A DNA stretch of 64,000 nucleotides, from the IMG/VR virus record IMGVR_UViG_3300005512_000001, positions 256,001 to 320,000 of that record; one strand, given 5' to 3'. The notes beneath the pieces are model-generated. The model was given only the letters and a program-made list of their open reading frames with translations, was not told the DNA's origin and searched no databases. Below, one piece after another: positions 49,812 to 63,170 of the stretch. The stretch's first letter is position 1. Each line of letters begins with the position of its first letter. The stretch comes from a virus. Taxonomy: Duplodnaviria; Caudoviricetes. The translations under genes and the position numbers were made by a program.

Positions 49812-49849
49812 TAATTTATTTGGAGATAGATAAAGAATGATTGGTACTC

Positions 49850-49934
49850 AGAAGGGTGTCCGAGCGGTTTATGGAGCTGAGCTTGAACCTCAGTAGGCCG
49901 AGAGGTCACGTGGGTTCGAATCCCACCCCTTCTG
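49850..49934 (+). tRNA. tRNA-Ser(TGA)
   Basis: Cloverleaf; CTGAG-CTTGAAC-CTCAG; long variable arm. Confidence 0.9.
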
Positions 49935-50042
49935 TTAAGAAATATGGTTCGCTAGGAACTGTATTAGATTTTTGAAAATTAATAGTTTTTTGCCCATTGT
50001 TCGTGCACCACGAGACGACGAGCGATCGTTGTCTCGTGGAAC

Positions 50043-50116
50043 GGAGATGTAGCTGAGACGGTTTAGCGGTTGGTTGAAGCCCAGCGACTACGCAGGTTCG
50101 ATTCCTGTCATCTCCA
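50043..50116 (+). tRNA. tRNA-Phe(GAA)
   Basis: GGAGATG/CATCTCC; GTTGG-TTGAAGC-CCAGC. Confidence 0.85.
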
Positions 50117-50318
50117 TTATGGAAAATAGAAACATGCAATACGAACGGTGGCTAGCGGAGCTAGACCAAGAATGCAGGAAGCACACGGGATACCCATGGA
50201 ATGCAATCTGCCATGATGCTAGTTTAGCCCGCGAAGCTTATTTGAAAGGTGAAACGACATCTAAGTTTATAGATGTTTTTATGGCGGAACATAAGCCATG
50301 TCTTGATTGGCACTTTTA

Positions 50319-50407
50319 GGATGGGTGGCAGAGTGGGCGATTGCGACAGATTGCTAATCTGTTAGGCCCCGCAAAGGGTCTCGCGGGTTCGAATCCCGCC
50401 TCATCCG
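50319..50407 (+). tRNA. tRNA-Ser(GCT)
   Basis: ACAGA-TTGCTAA-TCTGT; long variable arm. Confidence 0.92.
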
Positions 50408-50451
50408 TGTAAATGGTAAATGGTCAGTGAATAAATATAGGTATTAGCACC

Positions 50452-50919
50452 ATGGATGTTAGCACTAAAAAGCTTAAAATCAGCTGGACTGTAGCCCACG
50501 ATGAGTTATTGCATGTACGCAGAATGTACAAATTTCTGAGAACTCCATATGATTTCGAAGAAGGGCTATTGTCTTGTGAAATGGTAAACGACTGTGGGCT
50601 TGCATCACTTATTGAAGTAGATGATATGTTGGTTGCAAGCGAAGATATAGCCGACCCCGACTGCGATAAAATTGTTGTCGTTGTACGGATAGATGGTTCG
50701 GTTATCGCTACTAATGGCGATCAATATTGGATCAAGCCATATTCTAAACCATTAAGATTGACAACTGAAGACCAATCGTATATTAATTCGCATATTGGAA
50801 GTCTTAGTGTGGCGAATATAAATGATTTATTCGTTGAGGACTTGATTCTAAGTATTAATAACGAATTGAAGATGGAGATTGACCGCCAGGTTGTTGCTCC
50901 CCCTTTGGGCTTGTTGTGA
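50452..50919 (+). CDS. Hypothetical protein
   Basis: ORF between tRNAs. Confidence 0.55.
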   Translation: MDVSTKKLKISWTVAHDELLHVRRMYKFLRTPYDFEEGLLSCEMVNDCGLASLIEVDDMLVASEDIADPDCDKIVVVVRIDGSVIATNGDQYWIKPYSKPLRLTTEDQSYINSHIGSLSVANINDLFVEDLILSINNELKMEIDRQVVAPPLGLL

Positions 50920-51132
50920 GAAGGAATCAGATGAATCTCTTGACTAAATATAAGTGGCTATATGGCTTCGGTTGGGCAATCAAGGTTTTTATGCTTGCTT
51001 GGGGCTTTGCTTGGATTGGTCAACTGTGTGGTCCTGGTTAGTGGCAGTTCTTGGTCTTATTGCTTATGTGCTCATATCAACCATAATTTGTGAAATATGT
51101 AATAGAATACACGACCTTAGTTAGGCCCAAGG

Positions 51133-51363
51133 ATGATTGAAACATTCGTAGAACAATATCTTAAGGGGCAAATTGGCCTATCACAGATTGATGATTTTGT
51201 CGATCAGTGGCATGATAGCGATGATGATAGGCCAATTGAGGAATTTCTTGGTTTGACGCTGGAAGAATACGCCGCATGGGTTGAAGACCCGCAAAGCCTA
51301 GGCCGACTACTGCCAAGTCCGTCTAAAACCGAGAATGAGATGAACCGGCATCGAAGGCAATGA
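51133..51363 (+). CDS. Small acidic hypothetical protein
   Basis: IDDFVDQWH..FLGLTLEEYAAWV. Confidence 0.55.
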   Translation: MIETFVEQYLKGQIGLSQIDDFVDQWHDSDDDRPIEEFLGLTLEEYAAWVEDPQSLGRLLPSPSKTENEMNRHRRQ

Positions 51364-51408
51364 GTGCTGATAGTCCAGACCGGTTTTGCTAGGTCTGCAA
51401 GAACATAG

Positions 51409-51495
51409 GGAGGGTTGGCAGAGTCAGGTTTATTGCACCCGTTTCGAATACGGGAAGGCCGCAAGGTCTCGTGGGTTCGAATCCTTCACCCTCCG
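51409..51495 (+). tRNA. tRNA-Ser(CGA)
   Basis: CCCGT-TTCGAAT-ACGGG; imperfect T stem. Confidence 0.85.
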
Positions 51496-51515
51496 TTTAA
51501 CCTGACCACAAAAAT

Positions 51516-51589
51516 GGGAGTGTAACTCAATTTGGTAGAGTAACCGCCTTTTAAGCGGTAAGTTCTGGGTTCGAGTCCCAGCACTCCCA
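51516..51589 (+). tRNA. tRNA-Lys(TTT)
   Basis: ACCGC-CTTTTAA-GCGGT. Confidence 0.95.
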
Positions 51590-52430
51590 TTAATCCTTTG
51601 GAAACACAATTATGACATGTGGAAACACAATTATGACATGCCTCGCGATTTATATTGTTGTGTTCGTGGTTTTTGGGATATATGCATTTATACAAACTCG
51701 GAGAATTGATAATCACTTTGACAAGCAAAATGCGGAATTGTGTGAGAAAGAGTTTGAAAATCCTGTGGTTGTAGGCTTTGTGCGAATTGTTGGCGATAAG
51801 ATATTACACGACGTTAGCGACCCAAGCAACAAAAATGTTGCGATATTGGTAGATTCAGGGGCCACGCCTGCTTTTCTTTCGTGGAAATTTGCAATAAGTA
51901 AACACCGCGTTTATCGCATGTCTTTAATAGATAGTGATATGATATTGCACTATCACAAAAGAACTAAATGGCACGATAAAGTTTTCTCCCCTGTTATTAA
52001 GAATTTTGTAGAACACCAATGCTTACGCGGCATATAATAATGGGATTGCATCGTTGGTCGCCTCCTTATTTTGTGCCAGGATGCGATGACCCTGATGCAG
52101 AGCAAGTGTTCATAATACTATCGGTGACTGCACCAAAAAATGTTCGTAACTTAGAATCCACTCGCGTCGTCAGATATGTTGCTACTGATGGCGATGAATT
52201 CTATGAGGCCGAACCGGTTTATTTTCCGCATGTCTATGGCGAGGTTCATTTTAAGACTTATTATAGACTAAAATATGATGTTTCGCTCTATTATCATCCG
52301 CCATTTATGGTATATGGTCGCAAGCTCGATAGTGGTGAAGTTCATTATATCAAAGAGATGGTTGCAGAATGGTTAGACCAATGAAAGCCCACAGAAACTA
52401 CAAAATAAAGAAATAATAAAAGAAGAACAA

Positions 52431-52504
52431 GCCTCGGTAGCTCAGCGGATAGCAGCATCTGTCTTCTAAACAGAAGGTCCCAAGTTCGAATCTTGGTCGA
52501 GGTA
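52431..52504 (+). tRNA. tRNA-Arg(TCT)
   Basis: TCTGT-CTTCTAA-ACAGA. Confidence 0.92.
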
Positions 52505-52636
52505 TTCGAGTGAATTCAATCATGGCAAGAATAGAGTCGCTGTGATTTGATGTGCTGCATTTGTCATAGGCCCGAACATATTAATCGCGATTTATGGGAA
52601 CCACTCAAAGATATTCTAAAATTATAGGAATGTCTT

Positions 52637-53455
52637 ATGAAACCAGAAGGTCCATTACGTGTTTTAATCGAGATGCTGCTCGCAGAGGATGAGATAACGC
52701 ATACATCACCAAAAGATGGTGGTTATATTGCGGTCAGAGCCGAGAATGAGTTTGACTTAGAAATTGATTATTATATGGATGCTGACACAAAGGGCCGGTG
52801 GCACGACACGGATGCTGGTAGGCCAGCGGCACCAGAGATGCAGAGCAAACTTGATACTTTGGTCGCAGCCGATCCAAACACATCGACACTTCTTAAAAGA
52901 ATGAAGATGGATGCCGCCGGAATGAGTCTAGACCCAACTCATCTTCCTAACCCAGATGTTGAGGGAACCGAAGAGTGGTGGCCTACATATGCCAATAAAA
53001 TTTTCGATTGGCATGAGTCGGCCAGGCTGCAAAATCTTCCTCAACCTTTGCGAGGAATTTTTAAAGGCAAGTGGGCTGTGCTAGACATGGACCGCGATTT
53101 TGTTGTCATACTGCCACTACATAACGAAGTGAGAGGGCGATCACAATACAAAGGTGTGTATATTTTTAGGACAAATGCACACCAAAGTTTCCCACGATAT
53201 GGGATTACGGAGGGTGAGAATTTTATCTCATACGTCCCGAAACTATCGGTATCTGATGACGAACTAGAAAAAGAAGGCTTGCTGTTGGTAAGAAAGACTG
53301 CCGTTAGCCTTGACCTGGGCCGGATGTTGAGGCGTGATTATCACATCGGGAATATTACCCAGAACTTGGAAGAGTTCGATAATTATGCTAAGCTTAGAGG
53401 GCATGTTGATGAAATCCCTGAATCAATCAAGCGTAGCGATATGCTCTCGGACTAA
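52637..53455 (+). CDS. Hypothetical protein
   Basis: 272-aa ORF after CAAAGATA motif and AGGA RBS. Confidence 0.6.
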   Translation: MKPEGPLRVLIEMLLAEDEITHTSPKDGGYIAVRAENEFDLEIDYYMDADTKGRWHDTDAGRPAAPEMQSKLDTLVAADPNTSTLLKRMKMDAAGMSLDPTHLPNPDVEGTEEWWPTYANKIFDWHESARLQNLPQPLRGIFKGKWAVLDMDRDFVVILPLHNEVRGRSQYKGVYIFRTNAHQSFPRYGITEGENFISYVPKLSVSDDELEKEGLLLVRKTAVSLDLGRMLRRDYHIGNITQNLEEFDNYAKLRGHVDEIPESIKRSDMLSD

Positions 53456-53899
53456 TTCGAACATCCGACTACAAAAGGCAGTATTTTTGCACAACGATAA
53501 GTCAAATCTGGCATGATCTAATTTATCTCTATGCATCGCATAAACCATACCATCATAGATGCAAGTGGTGTGTCGTTTAGTATAATAATGACCTCTTGTT
53601 GTCGTAAGTATTACTGGGACGACGATATAATTAGGATTGTCGATGCATTGTGTGGCATGAAGTAAAGTTTTCGTTGCTAGTCTGGCTGATATGCCATCGA
53701 TATGTTTGAAGGCGACCAGAATTACCCTGTCGTAGACCATGCTGCGTAGTGATAGCGAGCTGTTTCGACAGCAATTTTTTAGGAGAAACTTATGACGGAC
53801 TATTATGTATTGTTGTTAGGAGGTTGGACACGTATTCCAACTCTCAGAGATGTTGCATTGCTGTTTACTCACGGCAAAACGGTCATACTTGGCCCAACC

Positions 53900-53983
53900 G
53901 TGTCGGTTGAGCAATTGGTAGCTCCCCAGGCTGTAAACCTGGTGTCCTAACGGACTATGTAGGTTCGAGTCCTACTCGACACA
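53900..53983 (+). tRNA. tRNA-Tyr(GTA)
   Basis: CCAGG-CTGTAAA-CCTGG; long variable arm. Confidence 0.9.
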
Positions 53984-54082
53984 TTCACCTACCCCTTGTG
54001 CGGAAAAATATGACCCGTAAGGGCAGATGGTCCGCAAGGATACGGCCGCTAGGGTACTGCTGCATTTGGGAGTGGGTGATTT

Positions 54083-54165
54083 GCGAGAGTGGCGGAATGG
54101 CAGACGCGCAGGTCTCAGGCACCTGTGTCCATTGGGACGTGGGAGTTCGACTCTCCCCTCTCGTA
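54083..54165 (+). tRNA. tRNA-Leu(CAG)
   Basis: CAGGT-CTCAGGC-ACCTG. Confidence 0.92.
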
Positions 54166-54169
54166 TTGT

Positions 54170-54241
54170 GCGTCTATAATTCAATGGTAGAATACCTGCT
54201 TGCCAAGTAGGACGTTGTGAGTTCGAGTCTCGCTAGACGCT
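54170..54241 (+). tRNA. tRNA-Gly(GCC)
   Basis: CCTGC-TTGCCAA-GTAGG. Confidence 0.93.
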
Positions 54242-54348
54242 TAATACTGAGTGATATCGTGGCACGCATATAAAAGGTTATGTAGCCTAGCATCTGTTGT
54301 GGCAGCTACAATAAGCGGGGGTCAAATATATGACGAGAGGACCATAAC

Positions 54349-54645
54349 ATGACGATTACAATAATCAGTTTGTATTCTGGCCATAGCGCTGATCATTTTG
54401 TTGGTGCTGTATTAGGGTCGTTGACCGATGAGCAAAAGCAGGCTATTGTTAGTAAGCATTTGCAAAATATTGGGCGTGGTGAAGTCGGAGAAGATGTGGA
54501 TGAGATCGGATTCGCAGAAGTAGAAGTGGGTCCTGAGATTCCGCGCGAGCTAGCGGTCTGGACGCAAGACGGTTTTGAATCTGGCGATATGTCGGGGGAT
54601 GTCGAGGCTTTTGGGCCAGAAGATATAGCTGGGAATATGGATTAG
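54349..54645 (+). CDS. Hypothetical acidic protein
   Basis: GAGG RBS. Confidence 0.55.
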   Translation: MTITIISLYSGHSADHFVGAVLGSLTDEQKQAIVSKHLQNIGRGEVGEDVDEIGFAEVEVGPEIPRELAVWTQDGFESGDMSGDVEAFGPEDIAGNMD

Positions 54646-54796
54646 AATGGACTGGCAAAAGCGATACAAGCTGTAAACTTGATGGCAGTGTTATATTGAT
54701 GCATTTGCATCTGTGGCAAGTTGGAGCAATACCAGCCATACTGAACAGCTGTAAGAGCTGGATATTCTGGGGTTGCCGTCAGAGCAACCCTTCTCT

Positions 54797-54868
54797 GGGC
54801 CGTTAGCTCAATGGTCGAGCATCGCCCCGATAAGGCGAAGGTTAGTGGTTCAAGCCCACTACGGCTCA
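54797..54868 (+). tRNA. tRNA-Ile(GAT), with C33
   Basis: TCGCC-CCGATAA-GGCGA. Confidence 0.9.
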
Positions 54869-54957
54869 TTGTAACCTGAGAGGGTGTGGGGGTAGTGCGT
54901 TATGCTTGCGTTGGTTAGGTCTGGCTCTGCAGAGAGAGCGTGTATCAGGTTACAAAA

Positions 54958-55030
54958 GGCAACGTAGCTCAATTGGTAGAGTACCCGTTTCATGTGCGGG
55001 TTGTTGCAGGTTCGAATCCTGTCGTTGCTA
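54958..55030 (+). tRNA. tRNA-Met(CAT), identity uncertain
   Basis: CCCGT-TTCATGT-GCGGG. Confidence 0.85.
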
Positions 55031-55035
55031 GTTTC

Positions 55036-55108
55036 GCCTCCGTAGCTCAATGGTAGTAGCAGATGCCTCTTAAGCATAAGGTTGCAGGTTCAAGTCCTGC
55101 CGGGGGTA
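55036..55108 (+). tRNA. tRNA-Lys(CTT)
   Basis: ATGC-CTCTTAA-GCAT. Confidence 0.9.
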
Positions 55109-55191
55109 GTTGTCTTCGAACAACGAGCGTCGCATAATGTGGCGACGATTGCGTTGTATTTAATTTTCCCCTTTGAGAAAGGTGGTGTGTG

Positions 55192-56499
55192 ATGAGGACG
55201 AATGTAAAGAACAAGTACGCCGAGAAGACGCACGAGGGTGCACCTGCTGCAAGGTTGAACGCCGAACAGGAATTGCGAAGGTCTGTTATGTCGTGCCTTT
55301 TGTGGGAGAGAACCTTCTACGAGAATGGCGTGGGCATCGCAGAGCGGATCGCTGATTTAGTGCCGCACGTAGCACCAGAAAAGGTCGCTGCGATGGCAAT
55401 CGAGGCACGTAGCGATATGAACTTGCGACACGCCCCGTTGTGGTTGGTCCGTTCGATGGCGGCTACCAAGACGCACAGGAGTTTGGTCGCTGATACGCTG
55501 GAAGCAGTAATTCAGCGTCCAGACGAACTGACTGAGTTCTTGTCTCTGTACTGGAATGGCAAGAAGACACCGCTTGCGGCTCAGGTCAAGAAGGGATTAG
55601 CAAGAGCATTCCGTAAGTTCGACGCTTATCGGTTGGCGAAGTACAATAGGGACAATGCCATCAAGCTTCGCGATGTCCTGTTCCTGACTCACGCCAAGCC
55701 AAAGGATGCCGAGCAGGCTGCAGTTTGGAAGAAGCTGGTCGATGGCACCTTGGAAGCCCCAGATACTTGGGAAGTTGCACTTTCGAGTGGTGCGGATAAG
55801 CAAGGTTCTTGGACCAGATTGCTTGAGGAAGGGAAGCTTGGTGCCTTTGCGTTGCTGAGGAACTTACGCAATATGCAGAAAGCAGATGTCGATGAGGACT
55901 TAATCAAAGACGCATTGGCCAAGGCTGATGTTTCCAGGATTTTGCCATTCCGATTCATCGCAGCTGCTCGTTATGCACCAGATTTTGAACCTGCTCTTGA
56001 GAAGGCGTTATTCAGGAGCTTGGAATCTCAGAAGCTTGTTGGTAAGACCATCGTATTGGTCGATGTTTCTGGTTCTATGAACTGGGAGCTTAGTTCGAAG
56101 TCCGATATGTTACGGATGGACGCGGCCTGCGGTCTTGCGATGGTATTGAGGGAATTGTGCGACGATATTAAAGTGTTCAGTTTCTCAACCCGCACTGCCA
56201 AGGTACCGGCCCGCAGAGGTTTTGCGCTACGTGATGCAATCGTAAGGTCGCAGCGGCATAGCGGAACTTATCTTGGTGGGGCAGTTGACACCGCCAATAA
56301 AGAGAAGTACGACCGATTGGTGGTAATCACGGATGAGCAGTCGCACGATGTTGTGCCATCGCCAAAGAGCCGTGGATACATGATTAATGTTTCGTCGGAC
56401 AAAAATGGAGTTGGATACGGTGATTGGACTCGCATTACCGGATGGAGCGAAGCGGTTGTGCGATATGTAATGGAACTTGAAAACGCCAAGTTCGTGTAG
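55192..56499 (+). CDS. rsr: Ro60/Rsr-like TROVE + vWA RNA-binding protein
   Basis: THEGAPA, LLWERTFYE, IQRPDELTEF, YRLAKY, LRDVLFLTHAKP, TWEVALS, ALLRNLRNM, LPFRF, DVSGSM, VITDEQ. Confidence 0.93.
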   Translation: MRTNVKNKYAEKTHEGAPAARLNAEQELRRSVMSCLLWERTFYENGVGIAERIADLVPHVAPEKVAAMAIEARSDMNLRHAPLWLVRSMAATKTHRSLVADTLEAVIQRPDELTEFLSLYWNGKKTPLAAQVKKGLARAFRKFDAYRLAKYNRDNAIKLRDVLFLTHAKPKDAEQAAVWKKLVDGTLEAPDTWEVALSSGADKQGSWTRLLEEGKLGAFALLRNLRNMQKADVDEDLIKDALAKADVSRILPFRFIAAARYAPDFEPALEKALFRSLESQKLVGKTIVLVDVSGSMNWELSSKSDMLRMDAACGLAMVLRELCDDIKVFSFSTRTAKVPARRGFALRDAIVRSQRHSGTYLGGAVDTANKEKYDRLVVITDEQSHDVVPSPKSRGYMINVSSDKNGVGYGDWTRITGWSEAVVRYVMELENAKFV

Positions 56500-56503
56500 T
56501 ATT

Positions 56504-56766
56504 TGACAATTAGTAGAGGCGACCGACGCTTAAGTCGGTAGGACGTGCTGTGAGGCAGCGACAGGTAGGTACGCCTGTTACACTACCTCCGACTCCATCA
56601 ACGCAGATGGTTTAGGGAGGGAGCGAAAAGACCCGTAAAGGGAGACACAGCCAGGTCTGTCAGTCAGGGATGGGTGAGTATGACACCCACACAGTACCTT
56701 ATGGCTTAGACAGTAGGGAATGCGTTACCCGAGATCCCGATAAAGCTGCCCATCTATTAGTTGTCG
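56504..56766 (+). ncRNA. Unidentified ~263-nt multi-stem structured RNA
   Basis: 14-bp closing stem TGACAATTAGTAGA/TCTATTAGTTGTCG enclosing at least six hairpins. Confidence 0.65.
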
Positions 56767-56981
56767 CTAAATGGAGAGTTGTCATGAACAAAGACGAGTT
56801 TCACAAAAGACAGCAGGGTTATCGCTTCTGGTTAGTATTGGGCGGTATGGCGGCTTCAATTTTGGGCTTGGAAGATATGGAGTTCGGCTTGTGCTAGGTT
56901 GGATTTCGATTTTCCTGGCCACTGTTGATTTGGACTACGTATTGAGTTTGTCTACGAAGCAAAACGCAGAACAATGATATT

Positions 56982-57118
56982 CCAACGATGGTGTAGGTGA
57001 CAGTTACTTCGATTTAGGATCGAGTGGTTGTGGGTTCGAATCCCACCCGCCCTTAATCGGGGCGGTAGCTCAATTGGCAGAGCGCTAAAACTTTCTGTTG
57101 CCGCCTGTTCCTCGTTGG
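56982..57118 (+). ncRNA. Y-RNA-like unit 1: scaffold + permuted tRNA with UAG anticodon arm
   Basis: CCAACGA/TCGTTGG; GGTGACAG/CTGTTGCC; anticodon arm, T arm, closed acceptor hairpin, D arm in that order. Confidence 0.85.
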
Positions 57119-57131
57119 TACTTTTGAGATT

Positions 57132-57198
57132 AACCGATGGTGAAGAATACGGCTACTTCTATTTAAGAACCAAACCCGTGTTCGCTTGTTCCTCGGTT
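57132..57198 (+). ncRNA. Y-RNA-like unit 2: minimal scaffold
   Basis: AACCGA/TCGGTT; GAATACGG/CCGTGTTC; conserved GATGGTGAAG, TACTTC, GCTTGTTCCTC. Confidence 0.75.
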
Positions 57199-57210
57199 TT
57201 TCATAAAGTT

Positions 57211-57297
57211 GGTTGATGGTGTAGGAATCGGTTACTTCTACCAAAACCGGCCTCAAAAGCTGGTACTTGAAAAACCGATTTCGCATGTTCCTCAACC
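57211..57297 (+). ncRNA. Y-RNA-like unit 3: scaffold + isolated CAA anticodon-like stem-loop
   Basis: GGTTGA/TCAACC; GGAATCGGTT/AACCGATTTC; ACCGGC-CTCAAAA-GCTGGT. Confidence 0.78.
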
Positions 57298-57304
57298 TAC
57301 AATC

Positions 57305-57445
57305 ATAGCTGATGGTGTAGGATACGGTTACTTCGACTTGTAATCGAGAGGTTGCGGGTTCGAATCCCGTCCATTTGTCGAGAGACATTTGGTAGCTCAA
57401 CTGGTAGAGCGCTAAAATTTCCGTTTCCGCTTGTTCCTCGGCTAT
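57305..57445 (+). ncRNA. Y-RNA-like unit 4: scaffold + permuted tRNA with UGU anticodon arm
   Basis: ATAGCTGA/TCGGCTAT; TTCGA-CTTGTAA-TCGAG; T arm; GAGA-capped acceptor hairpin; D arm. Confidence 0.85.
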
Positions 57446-57452
57446 TCATTAT

Positions 57453-57596
57453 TTAGTTGATGGTGTAGAGAACAGTTACTTCTATAAAACGGTAGGTTAC
57501 AGGTTTCGAGCCCTGTCCGCCTCAATGAGGCGGTAGCTCAACTGGAAGAGCAATCGTGGCATAAGCCAAGTCTGTTTTCGCCTGTTCCTCAACTAA
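57453..57596 (+). ncRNA. Y-RNA-like unit 5: YrlA-like (T arm, acceptor hairpin, D arm, no anticodon loop)
   Basis: TTAGTTGA/TCAACTAA; GAGAACAG/CTGTTTTC; CCGCCTC-AAT-GAGGCGG; TAGCTCAACTGGAAGAGC. Confidence 0.82.
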
Positions 57597-57603
57597 TTAT
57601 TTT

Positions 57604-57725
57604 GCTGCGTTAGCTCAATAGGTAGAGTGCTGGGACCTTTATCCCAGGTATGAGGAGTCGCAACTTCGTTGGTCCTAGGCACCGGGTGTTGTTGTTGGCT
57701 TAAGGTTCGAATCCCTCACGCAGCA
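57604..57725 (+). ncRNA. Aberrant tRNA-like RNA with ~50-nt variable region and non-canonical anticodon loop
   Basis: GCTGCGT/ACGCAGC acceptor; D arm; CTGGGA-CCTTTA-TCCCAG; GGTTCGAATCC. Confidence 0.65.
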
Positions 57726-57727
57726 TT

Positions 57728-58063
57728 ATGAACAAAATACCAATGACAAAATGGGAGACTGTTGCTTTTGTATTGTGGGTCCCTAGCGGCTTATCGGTGA
57801 TTGGTGCGCCTATAATTTTTGGTATTTATTTTGGTGTAATACCTGCTGCAATTTCATTTGTTATCGCGATGTCTATTAGCCACTGGAGTTTTTATATGGG
57901 GGGCAGGTATGGCGATCGTTGTGAGAAGTTAAAGCGTGAACAGAAATTGCCCGAACCAAGACTTATACGAGAATACAACGATGATGGCGAATTTTACCAT
58001 ATGGTGCCAAATCCAAAATATAAGCCTAAACCAAAAGTCGAATCGCGAATATTAGAACTTTAA
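57728..58063 (+). CDS. Hypothetical membrane protein
   Basis: Two hydrophobic segments. Confidence 0.5.
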   Translation: MNKIPMTKWETVAFVLWVPSGLSVIGAPIIFGIYFGVIPAAISFVIAMSISHWSFYMGGRYGDRCEKLKREQKLPEPRLIREYNDDGEFYHMVPNPKYKPKPKVESRILEL

Positions 58064-58099
58064 TCAGTCTATAATTGAATAAACCCGATTATAGGCTTT

Positions 58100-58172
58100 G
58101 TGGCCGTAGCTTAATTGGTAAAGCACAGCACTGTGAATGCTGGGAGTGTCGGTTCAAACCCGATCGGCCACC
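58100..58172 (+). tRNA. tRNA-His(GTG)
   Basis: CAGCA-CTGTGAA-TGCTG; C73; base -1 is T rather than G. Confidence 0.92.
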
Positions 58173-58542
58173 TTATGACTGACCCGAACAAATACGCTGA
58201 TACATGCCGCCCGATATTACTTGGAGATATAGCATATCCCAGATAGCTGTTAGTGTGCTTATTAAAAAGGTTGGCGATGGTTATGTGCGGTGGTCACGCC
58301 CGCACGCTAGTAATTAACTGCTAAAGATGCGATTAGACAGGAGTCTCGACATGGAGTTGATGTTCAGTGATGGCAAACTCTTTTTGACGGCGGAAAACGC
58401 CGAGGAAGAGGGTCAGATTAATGCAATGCACCGTATGATCACCGAGAGTTATAAAGACCAAGGTTCTGCTCTCGGAACTACAACAGATATTGATAGTGGT
58501 CGGCCCCGGCTGATTGTTTGGGCCGGATGTTATTGTGAATAA

Positions 58543-58625
58543 GCCCCTGTGATGGAATGGCAGACATGCCAGTTTCAAACACTGGTGTCCATTAGGACGT
58601 GTGGGTTCGACTCCCACCGGGGGTA
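58543..58625 (+). tRNA. tRNA-Leu(CAA)
   Basis: CCAGT-TTCAAAC-ACTGG. Confidence 0.92.
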
Positions 58626-58698
58626 GTTTTTGTGCTAGACACGCCGTGGCACAACCCTTATGAGGGCCGCATAGGTTCACTACCATAAGGAAATAACG

Positions 58699-59151
58699 AT
58701 GCCCACGATACCTCAGAAATATACTGGTAAAGCGCAATGTATTGAGCCCGAACATGTAGCAATGAATATTGGTATCGACATTGACTACACGATCACAGAG
58801 ATACCGTGGTTCTTCGCGATCTTGTCTAATGCGATGCGAGTGGCCGGTCATAAAATCTTCGTTGTATCTTATCGTGAGGAAGAAGATAGAGCGGAGACCG
58901 AACAGCTACTAAAAACTCTCGGCATAGAATATGATAGCCTACATCTCGGCGTCGGCCAAGAAACATTATCTAAGTTCAAAGGCCGAATGGCGAAGGAATT
59001 AGATATTGATGTCTTCTTCGACGATATGCCAGAAGCTTTTGTTGATATGCCTGATAAAGTTAAGCGAATGTGGTTGTGTAGTCCATCAGTCTATAATCTC
59101 AAAGCTGTAGTCAGTAAACTCATTGAGGTTATAGATTTTGGCGGCGATTGA
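58699..59151 (+). CDS. HAD-superfamily phosphatase/nucleotidase (possible start 58762)
   Basis: IGIDIDYT, VVSYR, FK, FFDDMP. Confidence 0.75.
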   Translation: MPTIPQKYTGKAQCIEPEHVAMNIGIDIDYTITEIPWFFAILSNAMRVAGHKIFVVSYREEEDRAETEQLLKTLGIEYDSLHLGVGQETLSKFKGRMAKELDIDVFFDDMPEAFVDMPDKVKRMWLCSPSVYNLKAVVSKLIEVIDFGGD

Positions 59152-59919
59152 TTCTACTACACCATAAGCAGGTACTAATCCTCTAGTAGTAGAGACCCCT
59201 AGGTCAAACAAGACATAATTACCATCCCGGTCTTTGCCAAGATTATCTGGTTGAACGTCGTAGAATCTTATTCCTGCTTCGTAATATAGGCGAAGTACGG
59301 CTTTGATGATGTCTCTGGCAATCATTAGAGCGGCTTTAGATTCTCCAAAACCGGCAACCTCTTTAAGTGCTATCTTAGCTAGTTGTGTGGATAACCGGTC
59401 TAAGTTATTTTCGGTGTATGGGGTCTTATCCATAATAGCGATTAGACCTATACCTCGTCTATGTGCGGGGCTCTCTTCCCTATGATAGTAATCAATTAGG
59501 AATTCACCTATTATATTAGCGATGGCTCTTTCCTCATGTGTGAGGTTGGTACCTTGTAGTTCTTGGATTATGACGTATAATTGGGAGTCAAAGCCTTCGA
59601 ATTGGCCTAGTTTAACGAGCTTTCCGAATTTACCGACATGGATAATTGGATTTACACCTTGCACCGCACGTTCCATAAGACGCATAGATGCTTTTGCTTC
59701 GGCGTCGTCCTCTGTGAATTTCACTACTACTTTGCCGTCGCTATAAGCAGCACCCTGTGTTCCGGCTCCAAGTAGATATAATTTATCAATATTAACGCCA
59801 AACCGCTTGAGGTAATCCCCTAAACCAGGAAATTCCTGGCGTAATACTTCAAGTAAATTGTCGGTTTTGCTGGTAGCTTCAAGAATGATATCGATGCGTT
59901 TTGAGAATAATGTGCCCAT
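59086..59919 (-). CDS. Protein-kinase-like protein
   Basis: LGAGTQGAAY, VVKFT, EA, YVIIQE, YDVQPDNLG, LFDLG. Confidence 0.8.
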   Translation of the reverse strand: MGTLFSKRIDIILEATSKTDNLLEVLRQEFPGLGDYLKRFGVNIDKLYLLGAGTQGAAYSDGKVVVKFTEDDAEAKASMRLMERAVQGVNPIIHVGKFGKLVKLGQFEGFDSQLYVIIQELQGTNLTHEERAIANIIGEFLIDYYHREESPAHRRGIGLIAIMDKTPYTENNLDRLSTQLAKIALKEVAGFGESKAALMIARDIIKAVLRLYYEAGIRFYDVQPDNLGKDRDGNYVLFDLGVSTTRGLVPAYGVVESIAAKIYNLNEFTDYSFEIID

Positions 59920-59939
59920 GATATTATATATTTGTATAA

Positions 59940-60021
59940 GCCCCTGTGGCGGAATGGCAGACGCACGGCCCTTAAAAGGCCGGGTCCATAGGACGTGTGG
60001 GTTCGACTCCCACCGGGGGTA
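59940..60021 (+). tRNA. tRNA-Leu(TAA)
   Basis: CGGCC-CTTAAAA-GGCCG. Confidence 0.92.
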
Positions 60022-60037
60022 GTAGATGTATTTTACC

Positions 60038-60110
60038 GCTAACGTAGCTCAACTGGTAGAGCACGGATTTCGTAAATCCGAGGTTGTGGGTTCGAATCCC
60101 ACTGTTAGCT
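60038..60110 (+). tRNA. tRNA-Thr(CGT)
   Basis: CGGAT-TTCGTAA-ATCCG. Confidence 0.94.
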
Positions 60111-60113
60111 TTT

Positions 60114-60213
60114 GCCGCCATAGTTCCAATGGTAGAATGCGCCCATTAAGCAAGCCTAACAAGAAGTGGCGATAGTCGGGGTGAGGTTGCGGGTTCGAAT
60201 CCCGCTGGTGGCT
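60114..60213 (+). tRNA. tRNA body with a ~34-nt sequence in place of the anticodon loop (intron-like or tRNA-like ncRNA)
   Basis: GCCGCCA/TGGTGGC; D arm; CGCCC...GGGTG; AGGTT; GCGGG-TTCGAAT-CCCGC. Confidence 0.7.
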
Positions 60214-60233
60214 TAGAGAAAATATAAATTATT

Positions 60234-60305
60234 GCCGATGTAACTCAGTGGTAGAGTGCGTTCTTGGTAAGAACGAAGCCATGGGTTCAAATCCCATCAT
60301 CGGCT
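60234..60305 (+). tRNA. tRNA-Thr(GGT)
   Basis: CGTTC-TTGGTAA-GAACG. Confidence 0.94.
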
Positions 60306-60306
60306 T

Positions 60307-60380
60307 GGGCCTTTAGCTCAGTTGGTCAGAGCAGCGCACTCATAATGCGTCGGTCGTAGGTTCAAGTCCTACAAGGCCCA
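60307..60380 (+). tRNA. tRNA(CAT), Ile2-like or Met
   Basis: GCGCA-CTCATAA-TGCGT; GGGCCT acceptor. Confidence 0.92.
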
Positions 60381-60385
60381 TTTTT

Positions 60386-60459
60386 AGACCTGTAGCTCAA
60401 TTGGTCAGAGCATACCCCTTATAAGGGTAAGGTTGGCGGTTCGAATCCGCCTAGGTCTA
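60386..60459 (+). tRNA. tRNA-Ile(TAT)
   Basis: TACCC-CTTATAA-GGGTA. Confidence 0.9.
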
Positions 60460-60484
60460 TTTGCCAGCATAGCTCAATGGTAAC

Positions 60485-60569
60485 GCCGGGATCGCATAGT
60501 GGCCGATTGCACTGGTTTTGTAAACCAGAGGGCGTGTGCCCCGCGTGGGTTCGAATCCCACTCTCGGCT
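60485..60569 (+). tRNA. tRNA-Thr(TGT) with long variable arm
   Basis: CTGGT-TTTGTAA-ACCAG; GGGC-GTGT-GCCC variable hairpin. Confidence 0.85.
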
Positions 60570-60845
60570 TTCATAAGATAATGACCTGAATTGAATGCTG
60601 GAAGAATGAGGTCAAATAATGGTACTCCCAAAATTTACAGGTACGAACATCATAACTTGGAATTCCACTACTGCTAGTAGCACGGGTGCAACCTCGGCAG
60701 GATATGAAATTCATATAGATGCTGCTTCGGGTACAGATACAGGGGTATTGATTGTGTATTATAGTAATGAAGTGGAACCTACAGAATCTACGGAACCTAC
60801 GGAACCTATAGAATCAATCAAACGCGAGCGACGAATATTGGAGAT

Positions 60846-61352
60846 ATGATGCAGAAAACGTTTGTGATGATTAAGCCTGATGCAGTGCAACGTGGTTTGG
60901 TTGGTGAGATAATCACAAGGTTTGAAAATAAAGGTCTAAAGCTGGTCGGACTTAAATTAATGCTGGTTGACACCGATGCTGCAAAACGATTGTATAAATA
61001 CCATAAAGGCCGATCATATTACGACGACCTTATAGCCTTCACAACATCGTCGCCAGTGGTGGTAATTGTCTTAGAGGGAAACGATGTGGTACGAGTCGTT
61101 AGGCGGATGCTCGGAGATACTAGTGGCGTCGATGCCTCTGCTGGCACTATTCGTGGCGACTATAGTGTTAGCCGCACTAATAGAAATTTAGTACACGCAT
61201 CAGATAGTGTTAAATGTGCTAAATTCGAATTTGAAATATTCTTTGACGATTTATTAGAATACACAAAATGTAATGAGCAGTGGTTGTATTCTGATAAAGA
61301 TAAAGGTGTTTTAGAGTTAGGCCAGAAGCCTGTCGAGCCGGTGCAGGAATAA
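60846..61352 (+). CDS. ndk: Nucleoside diphosphate kinase
   Basis: TFVMIKPDAVQRGLVGEII; GTIRGDY; NLVHASDS. Confidence 0.95.
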   Translation: MMQKTFVMIKPDAVQRGLVGEIITRFENKGLKLVGLKLMLVDTDAAKRLYKYHKGRSYYDDLIAFTTSSPVVVIVLEGNDVVRVVRRMLGDTSGVDASAGTIRGDYSVSRTNRNLVHASDSVKCAKFEFEIFFDDLLEYTKCNEQWLYSDKDKGVLELGQKPVEPVQE

Positions 61353-61451
61353 ATAACGCCACAGGTCGGAATTCGTTTCGATCGCAAGTTGATATCCTCT
61401 TTAGGATGAAGATTAGGCACAGACTGCGGTCTGGTGGCAACCGGCTAACTT

Positions 61452-61549
61452 TCCACTATAGTGAAAGGGTATCACGCTTAGCTGTTAACTAAGTAAGCTG
61501 TTAACTTTGTGGGTATTACCCTTCGTAGGTTCGATTCCTACCCCTAGTG
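61452..61549 (+). pseudogene. Chimeric tRNA-Asn(GTT) with duplicated anticodon loop
   Basis: CTTAG-CTGTTAA-CTAAG then AAG-CTGTTAA-CTT; T arm intact; acceptor strands do not pair. Confidence 0.6.
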
Positions 61550-61597
61550 TTTGGGTGTTAGTGGCAAATATAGGTTAACAACCCTAGGAGACCTAAT

Positions 61598-61948
61598 ATG
61601 CCGCATAAGACCCCAGAAGCACGTAAAGCCTACATGGATAAGTATAACAAACGACGTTATGCAGATCCAGAGTGGTCACATAAGCAATATTTGAGAGTTA
61701 AAAACCGCAAAGAGAAAGTAAACAGATGGTATAAAGCGAAGAAGGAACAACTAAAGTGTAAATGTGGTGAAGATCATATTTCATGCATTGAATTTCATCA
61801 CCGCAACCCAGGCGAGAAGGAGATTAATTTAAGTTATGCTGTATGGAGAGGCTGGAGTATTCAACGTATTGAACGCGAAATAGCGAAATGCGATGTGATG
61901 TGCTCCAACTGCCATAAAAAGTTGCATTTTAAACTCAAGGAGATATAA
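61598..61948 (+). CDS. HNH endonuclease
   Basis: CKCGEDH..CIEFHHRNP..K; EIAKCDVMCSNCHKKLH. Confidence 0.85.
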   Translation: MPHKTPEARKAYMDKYNKRRYADPEWSHKQYLRVKNRKEKVNRWYKAKKEQLKCKCGEDHISCIEFHHRNPGEKEINLSYAVWRGWSIQRIEREIAKCDVMCSNCHKKLHFKLKEI

Positions 61949-62215
61949 GTGGCGAATTTTAAAATCAATATGGATGATGAAAACCGCAAAAATCTTGCTG
62001 CTGCTATTAAAGAAGAAGCAGCAAGAATCGCGGTTCCTGAAGAATGTAAAAACGCGGCCGACCGGCTGGGCTTGGACCCATCTAAATTAGATATAAAGAT
62101 TATTAGTTGTGATGGCAAAGATGTAGAATTTTCTATGGCTGGTGCTACAACTAAAGAATTACAACAAATATCGGAAAATATGCGGCCTATAAGAATAGAC
62201 ATAAGTATAAAATAA
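61949..62215 (+). CDS. Hypothetical protein
   Basis: AGGAG RBS before GTG. Confidence 0.5.
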   Translation: MANFKINMDDENRKNLAAAIKEEAARIAVPEECKNAADRLGLDPSKLDIKIISCDGKDVEFSMAGATTKELQQISENMRPIRIDISIK

Positions 62216-62224
62216 ATAAAATAA

Positions 62225-62298
62225 TCTCCCGTAGCTCAATTGGTAGAGCGCGCGGCTGTTAACCGCGAAGTTGTAAGGTTCGAGTCCTACCGGGAGAG
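62225..62298 (+). tRNA. tRNA-Asn(GTT)
   Basis: CGCGG-CTGTTAA-CCGCG; one extra A in the T stem. Confidence 0.9.
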
Positions 62299-62317
62299 TT
62301 TCAAATAAGGAGCGAGC

Positions 62318-62506
62318 ATGTACAAGGTGAATGTTAACTGCTCTAATTGTGGATTTTCTGGAGAAGCTAGTTTCAGGAAAGGAAATCCTATCTCATCCGA
62401 AGAATGTCCCGTTTGTGGGTGTGTTAGACTATCTCTACCCCCGAAGCCAAAACGTATTGCCTGTGAGGGTGATCTCGACCGTATTGCCATAGAAAATGGG
62501 ATGTAA
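62318..62506 (+). CDS. Small Zn-ribbon protein
   Basis: CSNC..CPVC; AGGAG RBS. Confidence 0.55.
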   Translation: MYKVNVNCSNCGFSGEASFRKGNPISSEECPVCGCVRLSLPPKPKRIACEGDLDRIAIENGM

Positions 62507-62724
62507 TGGCTGCAGTAAGATGCAACAACCCAGAATGTTTGGGCATCTTCATAATGATTGATGGGCCGGATTTTAACGACTCGGATGGTGCAGAAATCGC
62601 GATCATCCCCAAGGCTTGTCCTTATTGTGCTCAGAGCAATAATTTTAGTATCCGAACTGGTGTGGTGGACTTGGAAAATGCAATATTGATATTCGGCGAG
62701 GAAGAAAGAGAAGAAAGTCAATGA
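62506..62724 (+). CDS. Small Zn-ribbon protein
   Basis: CNNPEC..CPYC. Confidence 0.5.
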   Translation: MAAVRCNNPECLGIFIMIDGPDFNDSDGAEIAIIPKACPYCAQSNNFSIRTGVVDLENAILIFGEEEREESQ

Positions 62725-63083
62725 ACCTTATGAACTATCAATCATCTATGCCAATACAGATAGAGATTCTACACAAACTGCAAGGATGGATAGATAAGCA
62801 CCCAGATGAGACTATGATTGTGCCTAATCATATTGCCCACGAAATAGATGTTTCTGCACTAGAGTTGGTGCATGTGATGCATAGGTTGATAATGCACGGT
62901 GTGGTTCGCGGGTCTTATCGAATCCGCCATGGTGAAACTCTTCTAGATACAGATTATGATTCTATACGAGAGATTCCCGACGAATTTTGCGATGAAACCG
63001 GCCAGAAGTTCAGCTTAGATGGCCCGAATATTGGGATTATTCCTGTCTACCACCTAAAGAACGACAGAAATAGTGATAAATAG
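62721..63083 (+). CDS. Hypothetical protein
   Basis: Overlapping start codon. Confidence 0.5.
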   Translation: MNLMNYQSSMPIQIEILHKLQGWIDKHPDETMIVPNHIAHEIDVSALELVHVMHRLIMHGVVRGSYRIRHGETLLDTDYDSIREIPDEFCDETGQKFSLDGPNIGIIPVYHLKNDRNSDK

Positions 63084-63088
63084 AACAA

Positions 63089-63159
63089 TACCTGGTAGTA
63101 TAATAGCAACACAGGAGATTCTGGTTCTCCTATTCCAGATTCGAGTCCTGGTCGGGTAA
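63089..63159 (+). tRNA. tRNA-Gln(CTG), degenerate
   Basis: GGAGA-TTCTGGT-TCTCC; mismatches in the D and T stems. Confidence 0.7.
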
Positions 63160-63170
63160 CAAGGTGAATA

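What the first reader, a model, noticed from the sequence alone, without database searches (positions are those of the whole stretch)
56982..57596. Five tandem Y-RNA-like genes: one covarying scaffold with interchangeable cargo, next to phage Ro60
Seen: five units (56982-57118, 57132-57198, 57211-57297, 57305-57445, 57453-57596) share the plan stem1-GA-UGGUG(U/A)A-stem2-YUACUUC-[cargo]-stem2'-GC(U/C/A)UGUUCC-UC-stem1'. Both stems differ in sequence between units yet still pair. Stem2 pairs are GGTGACAG/CTGTTGCC, GAATACGG/CCGTGTTC, GGAATCGG/CCGATTTC, GGATACGG/CCGTTTCC (one mismatch) and GAGAACAG/CTGTTTTC. This is compensatory covariation within one genome. The array lies about 480 nt downstream of a Ro60/TROVE gene. 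Known: bacterial Ro60 (Rsr) genes neighbour Y RNAs whose 5'/3' stem binds Ro and whose other end can be a tRNA mimic (YrlA); some phages also encode Ro and Y RNA. Inference: this is an expanded modular Ro60-RNP kit with a variant Ro-binding motif (GGUGUAG rather than the GNCGAA-type consensus) and five different effector domains.
Basis: partly seen in the sequence, partly recalled or inferred. Interest (0 to 1): 0.92.

Follow-up and report, generated by a model that had tools for sequence, protein, structure and literature searches.

The report
Phage Ro60 with five Y RNAs
A 341-kb phage carries, just after its gene for the ring-shaped RNA-binding protein Ro60, five small RNA genes in a row that share one folded "handle" but carry different bodies (three are tRNA look-alikes); it is an enlarged, poorly catalogued version of the known Ro60-Y RNA partnership, not a new kind of system.

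Summary
Five tandem units (56982-57596, + strand) share stem1, a bulged U, GG/CC, a conserved internal loop, an 8-bp stem2 and YUACUUC. Both stems covary. They lie 482 nt after a genuine TROVE+vWA Ro60 gene in a tRNA island of a complete 341-kb phage.

U1, U4 and U5 carry a circularly permuted tRNA-like body (YrlA type; Rfam YrlA 32-43 bits, below the 69-bit threshold). U2 and U3 are short hairpin forms.

A covariance model built from the five units finds 382 further units beside Ro60 homologues in 67 viral and 61 bacterial loci. All are on the Ro60 strand and nearly all lie within about 1.3 kb upstream. Arrays of 1-8 units are the rule: Caulobacter phage CcrColossus has 8, Xanthomonas phage Olaya 5. 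An RNA-only pattern search recovered a TROVE gene next to 54 of 80 loci.

So these are Y RNA genes of the known YrlA/YrlB kind, and the window's five are near the top of the usual range. Less expected points:
- the conserved handle lacks the published CGAA motif;
- in U1, U4 and about 28% of long units the "variable" hairpin looks like an anticodon arm;
- single orphan units occur in two complete Ro60-less phages.

Binding and expression are untested. This scan met the same family before on other DNA.

The parts
55192..56499 (+). Ro60 (TROVE + vWA/MIDAS) gene, 435 aa
   Evidence: Pfam TROVE at E 5.5e-18; Ro60-vWA match at 24.8 bits, just under its 27.7 cut-off. PHROG 850 RNA-binding protein, 1.8e-50. 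Profile match to Thermus phage phiLo Ro60 structures 9KOP/9L5Y, E 8e-42 over residues 11-432. The MIDAS DxSxS residues D291, S293 and S295 are invariant in alignment A4.
56500..56784 (+). 285-nt non-coding spacer after Ro60; possibly structured; role unknown
   Evidence: MFE -95.7 kcal/mol, z -2.6. No Rfam match at E<=10. No similarity in related loci.
56785..56897 (+). Small ORF (37 aa, hydrophobic) with a GGAG upstream; uncertain gene
   Evidence: Read from the sequence. No Pfam hit for the longer 75-aa frame.
56982..57118 (+). Unit 1: long Y RNA (YrlA type). Stem1 56982-56988 pairs with 57112-57118. Bulged U at 56989. GG/CC 56990-91 with 57110-11. Stem2 56996-57003 with 57095-57102. UUACUUC 57004-57010. 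Anticodon-arm-like hairpin 57008-57024 (loop UUUAGGA). T arm 57030-57046. Closed acceptor-like stem 57047-57065. D arm 57068-57083.
   Evidence: R1 140.4 bits. Rfam YrlA 42.9 bits, E 7e-8, over T arm, acceptor-like stem and D arm. Fold z -3.8.
57132..57198 (+). Unit 2: short Y RNA (handle plus a 16-nt A-rich apical loop with a UUC/GAA mini-helix)
   Evidence: R1 72 bits. Fold z -3.3. Same loop type as 53 short units elsewhere.
57211..57297 (+). Unit 3: medium Y RNA (handle plus a 36-nt body with one hairpin)
   Evidence: R1 67.8 bits. Fold z -3.5.
57305..57445 (+). Unit 4: long Y RNA (YrlA type). Stem1 57305-57312 pairs with 57438-57445. Stem2 57320-57327 with 57421-57428. UUACUUC 57328-57334. 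Anticodon-arm-like hairpin 57332-57348 (loop CUUGUAA). Variable loop AGGUU 57349-57353. T arm 57354-57370. Closed acceptor-like stem 57371-57392. D arm 57395-57410.
   Evidence: R1 141.7 bits. Rfam YrlA 33.1 bits. ARAGORN calls its 5' part tRNA-Thr(tgt) at 57306-57379 and Rfam tRNA gives 30.8 bits; I read both as miscalls inside the unit.
57453..57596 (+). Unit 5: long Y RNA (YrlA type) with T arm, 7-bp closed acceptor-like stem, D arm and an extra 3' hairpin
   Evidence: R1 128 bits. Rfam YrlA 31.6 bits. Fold z -3.4.
57604..57725 (+). Odd 122-nt tRNA-like gene 7 nt after unit 5, with about 50 extra nt in the variable region and a non-standard anticodon loop. Whether it belongs to the system is uncertain.
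   Evidence: Rfam tRNA 35.8 bits. Not called by ARAGORN. Fold z -1.0. crAss001 has a comparable 144-nt tRNA-like match right after its two post-Ro60 units.

Best explanation
The five units are genes for Y RNAs, the small non-coding RNAs that bind Ro60.

Inferred from their layout: they are most likely made as one precursor on the + strand and cut apart in the short A/U-rich spacers.

Shown by structure and conservation only: each RNA closes its 5' and 3' ends into a common handle. The handle is stem1, a bulged U, a GG/CC pair, a sequence-invariant internal loop (UG-W-A opposite GCNUGUU), stem2 and then YUACUUC. This handle is the module expected to dock on the phage Ro60 ring.

The distal body differs between units. 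U1, U4 and U5 present a complete circularly permuted tRNA shape: an anticodon-arm-like hairpin, a 5-nt variable loop, a T arm, an acceptor-like stem closed by a loop, and a D arm. U2 and U3 present only a short hairpin and an A-rich loop.

By analogy with Deinococcus Yrn1, Salmonella YrlA and Thermus phage phiLo Yrl1/2, the handle would gate or occupy Ro60. The bodies would tether it to different partners, giving the phage several Ro60 particles at once. tRNA-binding enzymes or nucleases would be partners for the tRNA mimics, and PNPase-type single-strand binders for the short forms. These particles would handle, or protect from damage, structured RNA such as its own 22 or more tRNAs.
For: Anatomy and covariation in the window.

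Family-wide structure:
- 139 distinct units are 95% paired, all 16 pairs change on both sides, and the covariation score is 0.847 against 0.10-0.14 in slid registers.
- An unbiased mutual-information scan of 52 scaffold columns ranks exactly the 16 proposed pairs as its top 16.
- RNAalifold on an independent MAFFT alignment of 38 long units recovers stem1, stem2, T arm, acceptor-like stem and D arm, with 28 of 30 pairs compensatory.

Linkage to Ro60:
- R1 finds 184 units in 67 viral Ro60 loci and 198 in 61 bacterial Ro60 loci. All 382 are on the Ro60 strand. Nearly all lie within about 1.3 kb upstream, and a few lie directly downstream as here.
- In the phage's own 341-kb genome, R1 hits only these five.
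- Reverse test: an RNA-only pattern gave 80 viral loci. 54 of them have a TROVE gene on the same strand within 1.3 kb.

tRNA-like bodies: Rfam YrlA matches over T arm, acceptor-like stem and D arm at E 7e-8 to 1e-4.

Protein: a true Ro60 with TROVE and a vWA-like C-terminal half carrying the MIDAS residues. Its closest solved relative is phiLo Ro60, which binds two upstream Y-like RNAs in vitro (PMC12135203).

Precedents, all in PMC4201824: Y RNAs within 4 kb of Ro60 on the same strand; at least two per locus; co-transcription with tRNA; processing from one precursor.

Spacers family-wide have a median of 9 nt and GC 0.31, against 0.52 inside units.
Against: - No expression, end-mapping or binding data exist for this phage.
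- The published Ro-recognition motif GNCGAAN0-1G is absent from the handle, so which conserved element contacts Ro60 is unknown.
- No unit reaches Rfam's YrlA gathering score. The same is true of phage loci that the literature counts as YrlA-bearing.
- Linkage is not absolute. 26 of 80 pattern-found loci show no adjacent TROVE gene. Two complete phage genomes have one unit and no TROVE gene at all.
- No promoter or terminator was identified for the array.
- The partner proteins of the bodies are conjecture. The phage has a CCA-adding enzyme but no RtcB or Rnl-type ligase.
Confidence: 0.8

Rival explanations
1. The units act mainly without the phage Ro60. They would be tRNA-shaped decoys or competitive inhibitors for host tRNA-cleaving nucleases, or RNAs that use the host's own Ro60. 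On this view the neighbouring Ro60 gene is helpful but not required.
For: - Two complete phage genomes carry one good unit (48.6 and 55 bits) and no TROVE gene.
- 57 of 207 long units, including U1 and U4, have a 5-bp stem and 7-nt loop with U at position 2 (89%) and a purine at position 6 (96%), around 33 different middle triplets.
- A decoy role for YrlA was proposed by Hughes et al. (PMC7790460).
Against: - The strict same-strand, close-range linkage to Ro60 in most loci argues for a shared function.
- The short units U2 and U3 keep the handle but have no tRNA-like part.
- Salmonella YrlA was not cut by the anticodon nuclease studied (PMC7790460).
- The orphan units may simply borrow a host Ro60 of the same clade, which is common in bacteria.
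Confidence: 0.1
2. The units are cis-acting parts of the Ro60 messenger RNA: leader or trailer structures that Ro60 binds to control its own synthesis or mRNA stability. They would not be free-standing small RNAs.
For: In most loci the array sits directly upstream of Ro60 on the same strand, often ending within 20-150 nt of the start codon. No separate promoter or terminator was found in the window.
Against: - In the window, L095, L129, crAss001 and 5 of 54 pattern-found loci the units lie downstream of Ro60.
- Orphan units exist without any Ro60 gene.
- In M. smegmatis, upstream Y RNAs are processed from the precursor into stable Ro60-bound RNAs (PMC4201824).
- Closed terminal stems separated by A/U-rich spacers are typical of excised RNAs.
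Confidence: 0.07
3. The units are decayed or rearranged tRNA genes in a phage tRNA island, with no function of their own.
For: The array lies among 22 tRNA genes. ARAGORN and Rfam's tRNA model call part of U4 a tRNA. The T and D arms are tRNA-like.
Against: - Compensatory changes in every scaffold pair across 139 units from unrelated phages and bacteria.
- An invariant handle sequence, and constant orientation beside Ro60.
- No unit resembles any one tRNA of the phage beyond the generic T and D arms.
Confidence: 0.02

Closest known systems
Bacterial and phage YrlA/YrlB Y RNAs with Ro60 (Rsr): Salmonella rsr-yrlBA-rtcBA, M. smegmatis, mycobacteriophages, CcrColossus, Bacillus phage G (Chen et al. 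2014, PMC4201824; Rfam RF02553; YrlA structure, bioRxiv 10.1101/312249)
   Same: - Encoded within 4 kb of Ro60 on the same strand.
- The 5' and 3' ends form a long stem.
- A YUAY element is followed by a hairpin, T arm, closed acceptor-like stem and D arm, with the Levitt 15:48 pair covarying.
- A tRNA-like RNA sits beside a short hairpin-type RNA in one locus.
- The locus lies next to tRNA genes.
   Different: - Five units instead of the two described per locus.
- The handle has U-GG-Y-G-W-A-G opposite GCNUGUUCC and lacks GNCGAAN0-1G.
- An extra 8-bp stem2 lies between the handle loop and YUAC.
- Scores stay below the Rfam threshold.
- The 'V' hairpin of U1 and U4 has anticodon-arm geometry.
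- No RtcB or RtcA gene is nearby.
Thermus phage phiLo Ro60 with Yrl1 and Yrl2 (PMC12135203; PDB 9KOP, 9L5Y)
   Same: A phage-encoded Ro60, the closest solved relative (E 8e-42), with Y-like RNAs next to the gene. Binding and a complex with host PNPase were shown in vitro there.
   Different: phiLo has two RNAs upstream, defined by a CGAA motif in a bulge, with no tRNA-like body reported. Here there are five RNAs downstream, with a different conserved handle, and three are tRNA mimics.
Animal Y RNA families (human Y1, Y3, Y4, Y5; nematode stem-bulge RNAs)
   Same: Several paralogous RNAs share one Ro-binding stem with a single bulged pyrimidine, a short helix and an asymmetric internal loop, while the distal loops differ and recruit different proteins. 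This comparison rests on my own knowledge of the Y RNA sequences and on PMC12135203's description of the bulged helix.
   Different: No sequence relationship was shown. The animal distal domains are loops rather than tRNA mimics, and the genes are separate polymerase III units rather than a tandem array.
Deinococcus radiodurans Yrn1/Yrn2 and the Ro60-Y RNA-PNPase machine (Chen et al. 2013, 2014)
   Same: Several small RNAs lie beside rsr, are made as a polycistronic precursor with a tRNA, and have a partly tRNA-like body. They offer a tested model for how a Y RNA tethers Ro60 to an effector.
   Different: The order of the tRNA-like arms differs and the handle sequence differs. The effector here is unknown.

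Membership tests
YrlA-type Y RNA (Chen et al. 2014; Rfam RF02553) | Encoded within about 4 kb of a Ro60 orthologue, on the same strand | tested here: met
   The array starts 482 nt after the Ro60 stop codon, on the + strand. The same linkage holds for 382 units in 128 loci.
YrlA-type Y RNA (Chen et al. 2014; Rfam RF02553) | 5' and 3' ends pair into a long stem that carries the Ro60 site | tested here: met
   Stem1, GG/CC and stem2 are present in all five units and covary.
YrlA-type Y RNA (Chen et al. 2014; Rfam RF02553) | GNCGAAN0-1G motif near the 5' end | tested here: not met
   No unit has CGAA in the handle. U1 and U2 read CGAUGG; U3-U5 read UGAUGG. The family consensus is G-R-U-GG-Y-G-W-A-G.
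YrlA-type Y RNA (Chen et al. 2014; Rfam RF02553) | Conserved YUAY at the start of the variable region, followed by an optional hairpin | tested here: met
   UUAC or CUAC is present in all five units. U, A and C are at 140, 127 and 140 of 140 in the family alignment.
YrlA-type Y RNA (Chen et al. 2014; Rfam RF02553) | tRNA-like domain: T arm, closed acceptor-like stem, UA, D arm, Levitt pair | tested here: met
   Met for U1, U4 and U5. The A15:U48 or G15:C48 pairing was read from alignment A6. U2 and U3 lack this domain and fit the short YrlB-like class instead.
YrlA-type Y RNA (Chen et al. 2014; Rfam RF02553) | Score at or above Rfam's gathering threshold (69 bits) | tested here: not met
   Scores are 42.9, 33.1 and 31.6 bits; there is no hit for U2 or U3. 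The CcrColossus, Bacillus phage G and Gordonia phage loci also stay at 36-50 bits, so the threshold is not decisive for phage members.
YrlA-type Y RNA (Chen et al. 2014; Rfam RF02553) | Bound and stabilised by Ro60 in vivo | not testable with these tools
   Needs pull-down, gel-shift or RNA sequencing.
YrlB-type short Y RNA | [quoted passage not shown] | tested here: inconclusive
   U2 and U3 are long hairpins with the same handle, but their loops are A-rich, of the form UUC...GAA(A). Binding was not tested.
tRNA (RF00005) | Seven-pair acceptor stem formed by the RNA's own ends, a full D arm, and a mature 3' end | tested here: not met
   - The ARAGORN and Rfam tRNA calls in U4 and U1 borrow the handle's 5' strand as acceptor and D arm.
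- They have non-standard acceptor pairs and a shortened D region.
- The same bases score 141.7 bits (U4) and 140.4 bits (U1) as whole units in R1, a model that was trained on them.
- Held-out units in other loci score 40-107 bits.
Ro60 / TROVE protein | TROVE (HEAT-repeat ring) domain plus a vWA domain with MIDAS DxSxS | tested here: met
   Pfam TROVE at E 5.5e-18. The Ro60-vWA match is 24.8 bits, just under its 27.7 cut-off. D291, S293 and S295 are invariant. There is a full-length match to phiLo Ro60 9KOP.

The most novel reading that the evidence does not exclude
The long units would be full, circularly permuted tRNA mimics that include a working anticodon-arm look-alike. The hairpin has a 5-bp stem and a 7-nt Y-U-NNN-R-A loop, followed by a class-I variable loop. 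The middle triplets differ from unit to unit: UAG in U1, UGU in U4, and 33 different triplets family-wide.

On this reading an array is a panel of Ro60-mounted decoys or sensors. Each would be aimed at a different host anticodon nuclease or other tRNA-targeting defence, protecting the phage's own tRNA set. Phages without Ro60 would carry single units that borrow the host's Ro60.
Probability: 0.15. Interest if true: 0.8.

Novelty: new variant of a known kind. Interest (0 to 1): 0.5.

Why it matters
Ro60-Y RNA particles are well known in animals and in a few bacteria, but what they do in phages is open. This locus and its relatives show three things.
- One widespread Ro60 clade, in phages and bacteria, routinely comes with arrays of up to eight Y RNAs built on one handle.
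- These RNAs escape Rfam thresholds and are sometimes annotated as tRNAs or small ORFs.
- Cultured phages (CcrColossus, Xanthomonas phage Olaya, Brevundimonas phage Kikimora, crAss001) carry them, so the biology can be tested directly.

The conserved handle gives a defined candidate Ro60 site that differs from the published CGAA motif. The anticodon-like hairpins make the proposed "tRNA decoy" role of YrlA testable.

Tried and rejected
- Megablast of the locus against GenBank phages found no match.
- My first collection patterns used 8 instead of 7 free bases between WAG and WTACTTC. They therefore missed the window's own geometry. Only one of the 47 hits (L002) carried the 3' motif; the 20 loci were not examined further. 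The corrected pattern is.
- No unit or relative passed Rfam at gathering thresholds.
- Supplementary tables of Chen et al. 2014, the 2020 Annual Review on bacterial Ro60, and Burroughs and Aravind 2016 are not held. I therefore could not check whether multi-unit arrays are mentioned there.
- I looked for a parental tRNA of each tRNA-like body among the phage's tRNAs and found only generic T- and D-arm similarity.
- Blastn of the 285-nt spacer, the small ORF and the odd tRNA-like gene against all fetched loci found nothing.
- The promoter and terminator scan gave nothing above chance for the array.
- I considered a non-canonical helix across the handle's internal loop (GGYGWA opposite UGUUCC). 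No covariation supports it.
- A tandem-tRNA-dimer origin of the unit is attractive but was not tested.

Full report
**Observation.**
- Each has this plan: stem1 (6-8 bp, ending in GA/UC), a bulged U, GG, UG(U/A)A, an 8-bp stem2, YUACUUC, a variable body, stem2', GCNUGUU, CC, UC and stem1'.
- The 3' motif GCNTGTTCCTC occurs five times in the 64-kb window, only here.
- Spacers are 7-13 nt and A/U-rich.
- Of the 80 pair cells, 98.8% are paired and 9 of 16 pairs change on both sides. No shuffle in 500 reached the observed values, and shifted registers give 40-55% pairing.
- Every unit folds better than its shuffles (z -3.3 to -3.8).

**Context.**
- The window is part of a complete 341,434-bp phage record with terminal repeats.
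- The array lies in a tRNA island: 23 ARAGORN calls between 49.8 and 63.2 kb, one of which falls inside unit 4.
- The gene at 55192-56499 is a genuine Ro60. It has a TROVE domain, a weaker vWA match (24.8 bits, just under the 27.7 cut-off) and an intact MIDAS motif.
- It matches PHROG 850, and its closest solved relative is the Ro60 of Thermus phage phiLo (E 8e-42).
- Neighbouring genes give no hint of RNA repair.
- The genome has a CCA-adding enzyme but no RtcB or Rnl-type ligase.

**What the units are.**
- Rfam's YrlA model matches U1, U4 and U5 over the T arm, closed acceptor-like stem and D arm. Scores are 42.9, 33.1 and 31.6 bits (E 7e-8 to 1e-4), below the 69-bit threshold. U2 and U3 have no match.
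- Chen et al. 2014 (PMC4201824) define YrlA by five features: position within 4 kb of Ro60 on the same strand, a terminal stem, a GNCGAAN0-1G motif, a conserved YUAY that opens the variable region (often followed by a 'V' hairpin), and a tRNA-like T/acceptor/D core.
- The units meet all of these except the CGAA motif.
- U2 and U3 are the short hairpin class, comparable to YrlB.
- ARAGORN's tRNA-Thr(tgt) at 57306-57379 is a miscall that borrows the handle's 5' strand.

**Comparative test.** I built a covariance model (R1) from the five units using only the scaffold pairs.
- In the phage's own genome it finds only these five.
- Ro60 homologues (50-65% identical) were fetched from 67 viral and 61 bacterial genome loci. 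R1 finds 184 and 198 units in them.
- All 382 units are on the Ro60 strand. Nearly all lie within about 1.3 kb upstream of the gene. A few (L095, L129) lie directly downstream, as in the window.
- At E <= 1e-4, arrays of 1-7 units per viral locus are seen, with 3-4 typical. The window's five is near the top.
- Cultured phages have arrays too: CcrColossus 8 and Xanthomonas phage Olaya 5; Brevundimonas phage Kikimora 6, Rhizobium phage RHph_TM30 3-4, crAss001 2 (downstream) and Gordonia phage Neville 1.
- GenBank leaves these stretches blank or labels a piece as a tRNA: CcrColossus tRNA-Gln, Kikimora tRNA-Ser.
- None of these loci reaches Rfam's YrlA threshold, although phages such as CcrColossus and Bacillus phage G are cited as YrlA-bearing (PMC12135203, citing Chen et al.).

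**Structure across the family.**
- On 139 distinct units, 95% of cells pair and all 16 pairs show double changes. The covariation score is 0.847 against 0.10-0.14 for shifted registers. This alignment is fitted to the model.
- Two checks are free of that bias. A mutual-information scan over 52 scaffold columns ranks exactly the 16 proposed pairs first. RNAalifold on a MAFFT alignment of 38 long units recovers stem1, stem2, T arm, acceptor-like stem and D arm, with 28 of 30 pairs compensatory.
- The internal loop and UACUUC do not covary and are nearly invariant. This fits a protein contact or a tertiary motif.

**Reverse linkage test.**
- An RNA-only pattern (TGGTGWAG, 7 free bases, WTACTTC, 20-50 free bases, TGTTCC) returned 89 viral stretches, of which 80 were listed.
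- 54 of the 80 have a TROVE gene on the same strand within 1.3 kb: 49 downstream of the unit and 5 upstream.
- Most of the other 26 are real units by R1. Some lie at contig ends or in genomes that hold Ro60 elsewhere.
- Two complete genomes (104 kb and 51.6 kb, both with terminal repeats) have one unit and no TROVE gene by two searches, while a positive control rang.
- Linkage is therefore strong but not absolute.

**A finer point on the bodies.**
- In U1 and U4 the hairpin after YUAC has a 5-bp stem and a 7-nt loop (UUUAGGA, CUUGUAA). It is followed by 5 nt (UGGUU, AGGUU) and then the T arm. This is the geometry of an anticodon arm plus a class-I variable loop.
- Of 207 distinct long units, 57 share this geometry. 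Loop position 2 is U in 89%, position 6 is a purine in 96%, and position 7 is A in 79%. The middle three bases take 33 different values.
- The literature calls this hairpin a variable arm. I found no description of it as an anticodon-arm mimic, but I could not read the main review.
- Hughes et al. (PMC7790460) suggested that YrlA may inhibit an anticodon nuclease competitively, which makes this feature worth testing.

**Mechanism.**
- Shown: a conserved, covarying handle; tRNA-like or short bodies; tight genomic coupling to a real Ro60.
- Inferred from the studied systems (Deinococcus, Salmonella, M. smegmatis, phiLo): the handle docks on Ro60; the bodies recruit different partners; the RNAs are cut from a common precursor at the A/U-rich spacers, which have a median of 9 nt and GC 0.31 against 0.52 in units.
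- Unknown: the promoter, the ends, the partners and the benefit to the phage.

**Novelty.**
- Phage Ro60 with Y RNAs is known (PMC4201824, PMC12135203, PMC7824862).
- Relative to what I could read, four things are new: the size and regularity of the arrays, the CGAA-less handle signature, the anticodon-arm-like hairpins and the orphan units.
- This scan has already met the same family on other DNA. Examples are a six-unit array before a bacterial Ro60 and a phage with six units. Those notes reached the same verdict that I reach independently: an extension of a known system.

Noticed in passing
window 57604-57725 (+): A 122-nt tRNA-like gene lies 7 nt after unit 5. Rfam tRNA gives 35.8 bits and ARAGORN does not call it. 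It has about 50 extra nt in the variable region, and its anticodon stem-loop is either 6 bp with a 6-nt loop or 5 bp with an 8-nt loop. crAss001 has a similar 144-nt tRNA-like match (46.6 bits) right after its two post-Ro60 units (L307 4124-4267).
   Followed up: partly
window 56500-56784 (+): A 285-nt non-coding stretch between Ro60 and the array folds somewhat better than its shuffles (z -2.6). It has no Rfam match and no similarity in related loci. A TTGACA box sits at 56504.
   Followed up: partly
L223 3288-3356 and L271 2162-2243: Two complete phage genomes with terminal repeats (104 kb and 51.6 kb) each carry one good handle unit (48.6 and 55 bits) but no TROVE/Ro60 gene. These are orphan Y RNAs that might use a host Ro60.
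   Followed up: partly
L197 1655-1722 (CcrColossus); L312 2302-2376 (Kikimora); L310 2113-2258 (Gordonia phage Neville): Public annotations label parts of Y RNA units as tRNA-Gln or tRNA-Ser, or cover a unit with tiny 'hypothetical protein' ORFs (Neville gp89 and gp90). These are probably mis-annotations.
   Followed up: partly
L258 6837-7727 (-): In one 97-kb phage that holds Ro60 elsewhere, a second group of units lies next to an RlaP-family gene (RNA repair pathway DNA polymerase beta family, Pfam E 3e-17).
   Followed up: no
L312 5877-6222 (+): Brevundimonas phage Kikimora has a permuted tmRNA match (Rfam tmRNA_permuted, 57.7 bits, above threshold) about 2 kb downstream of its Ro60 gene.
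   Followed up: no
G000:C1:252935-253058 (about 3 kb before the window): There is a weak YrlA match (28.8 bits) outside the array. The phage may therefore carry two different tRNA-mimic RNA systems.
   Followed up: no
window 49849-63160: The tRNA island holds 22 credible tRNA genes, including three each for Ser, Leu and Thr plus a fourth Thr(tgt), and tRNA-Ile(tat). They are interspersed with small ORFs, a pyrimidine-dimer glycosylase (48961-49305) and a nucleoside diphosphate kinase (60846-61352).
   Followed up: no
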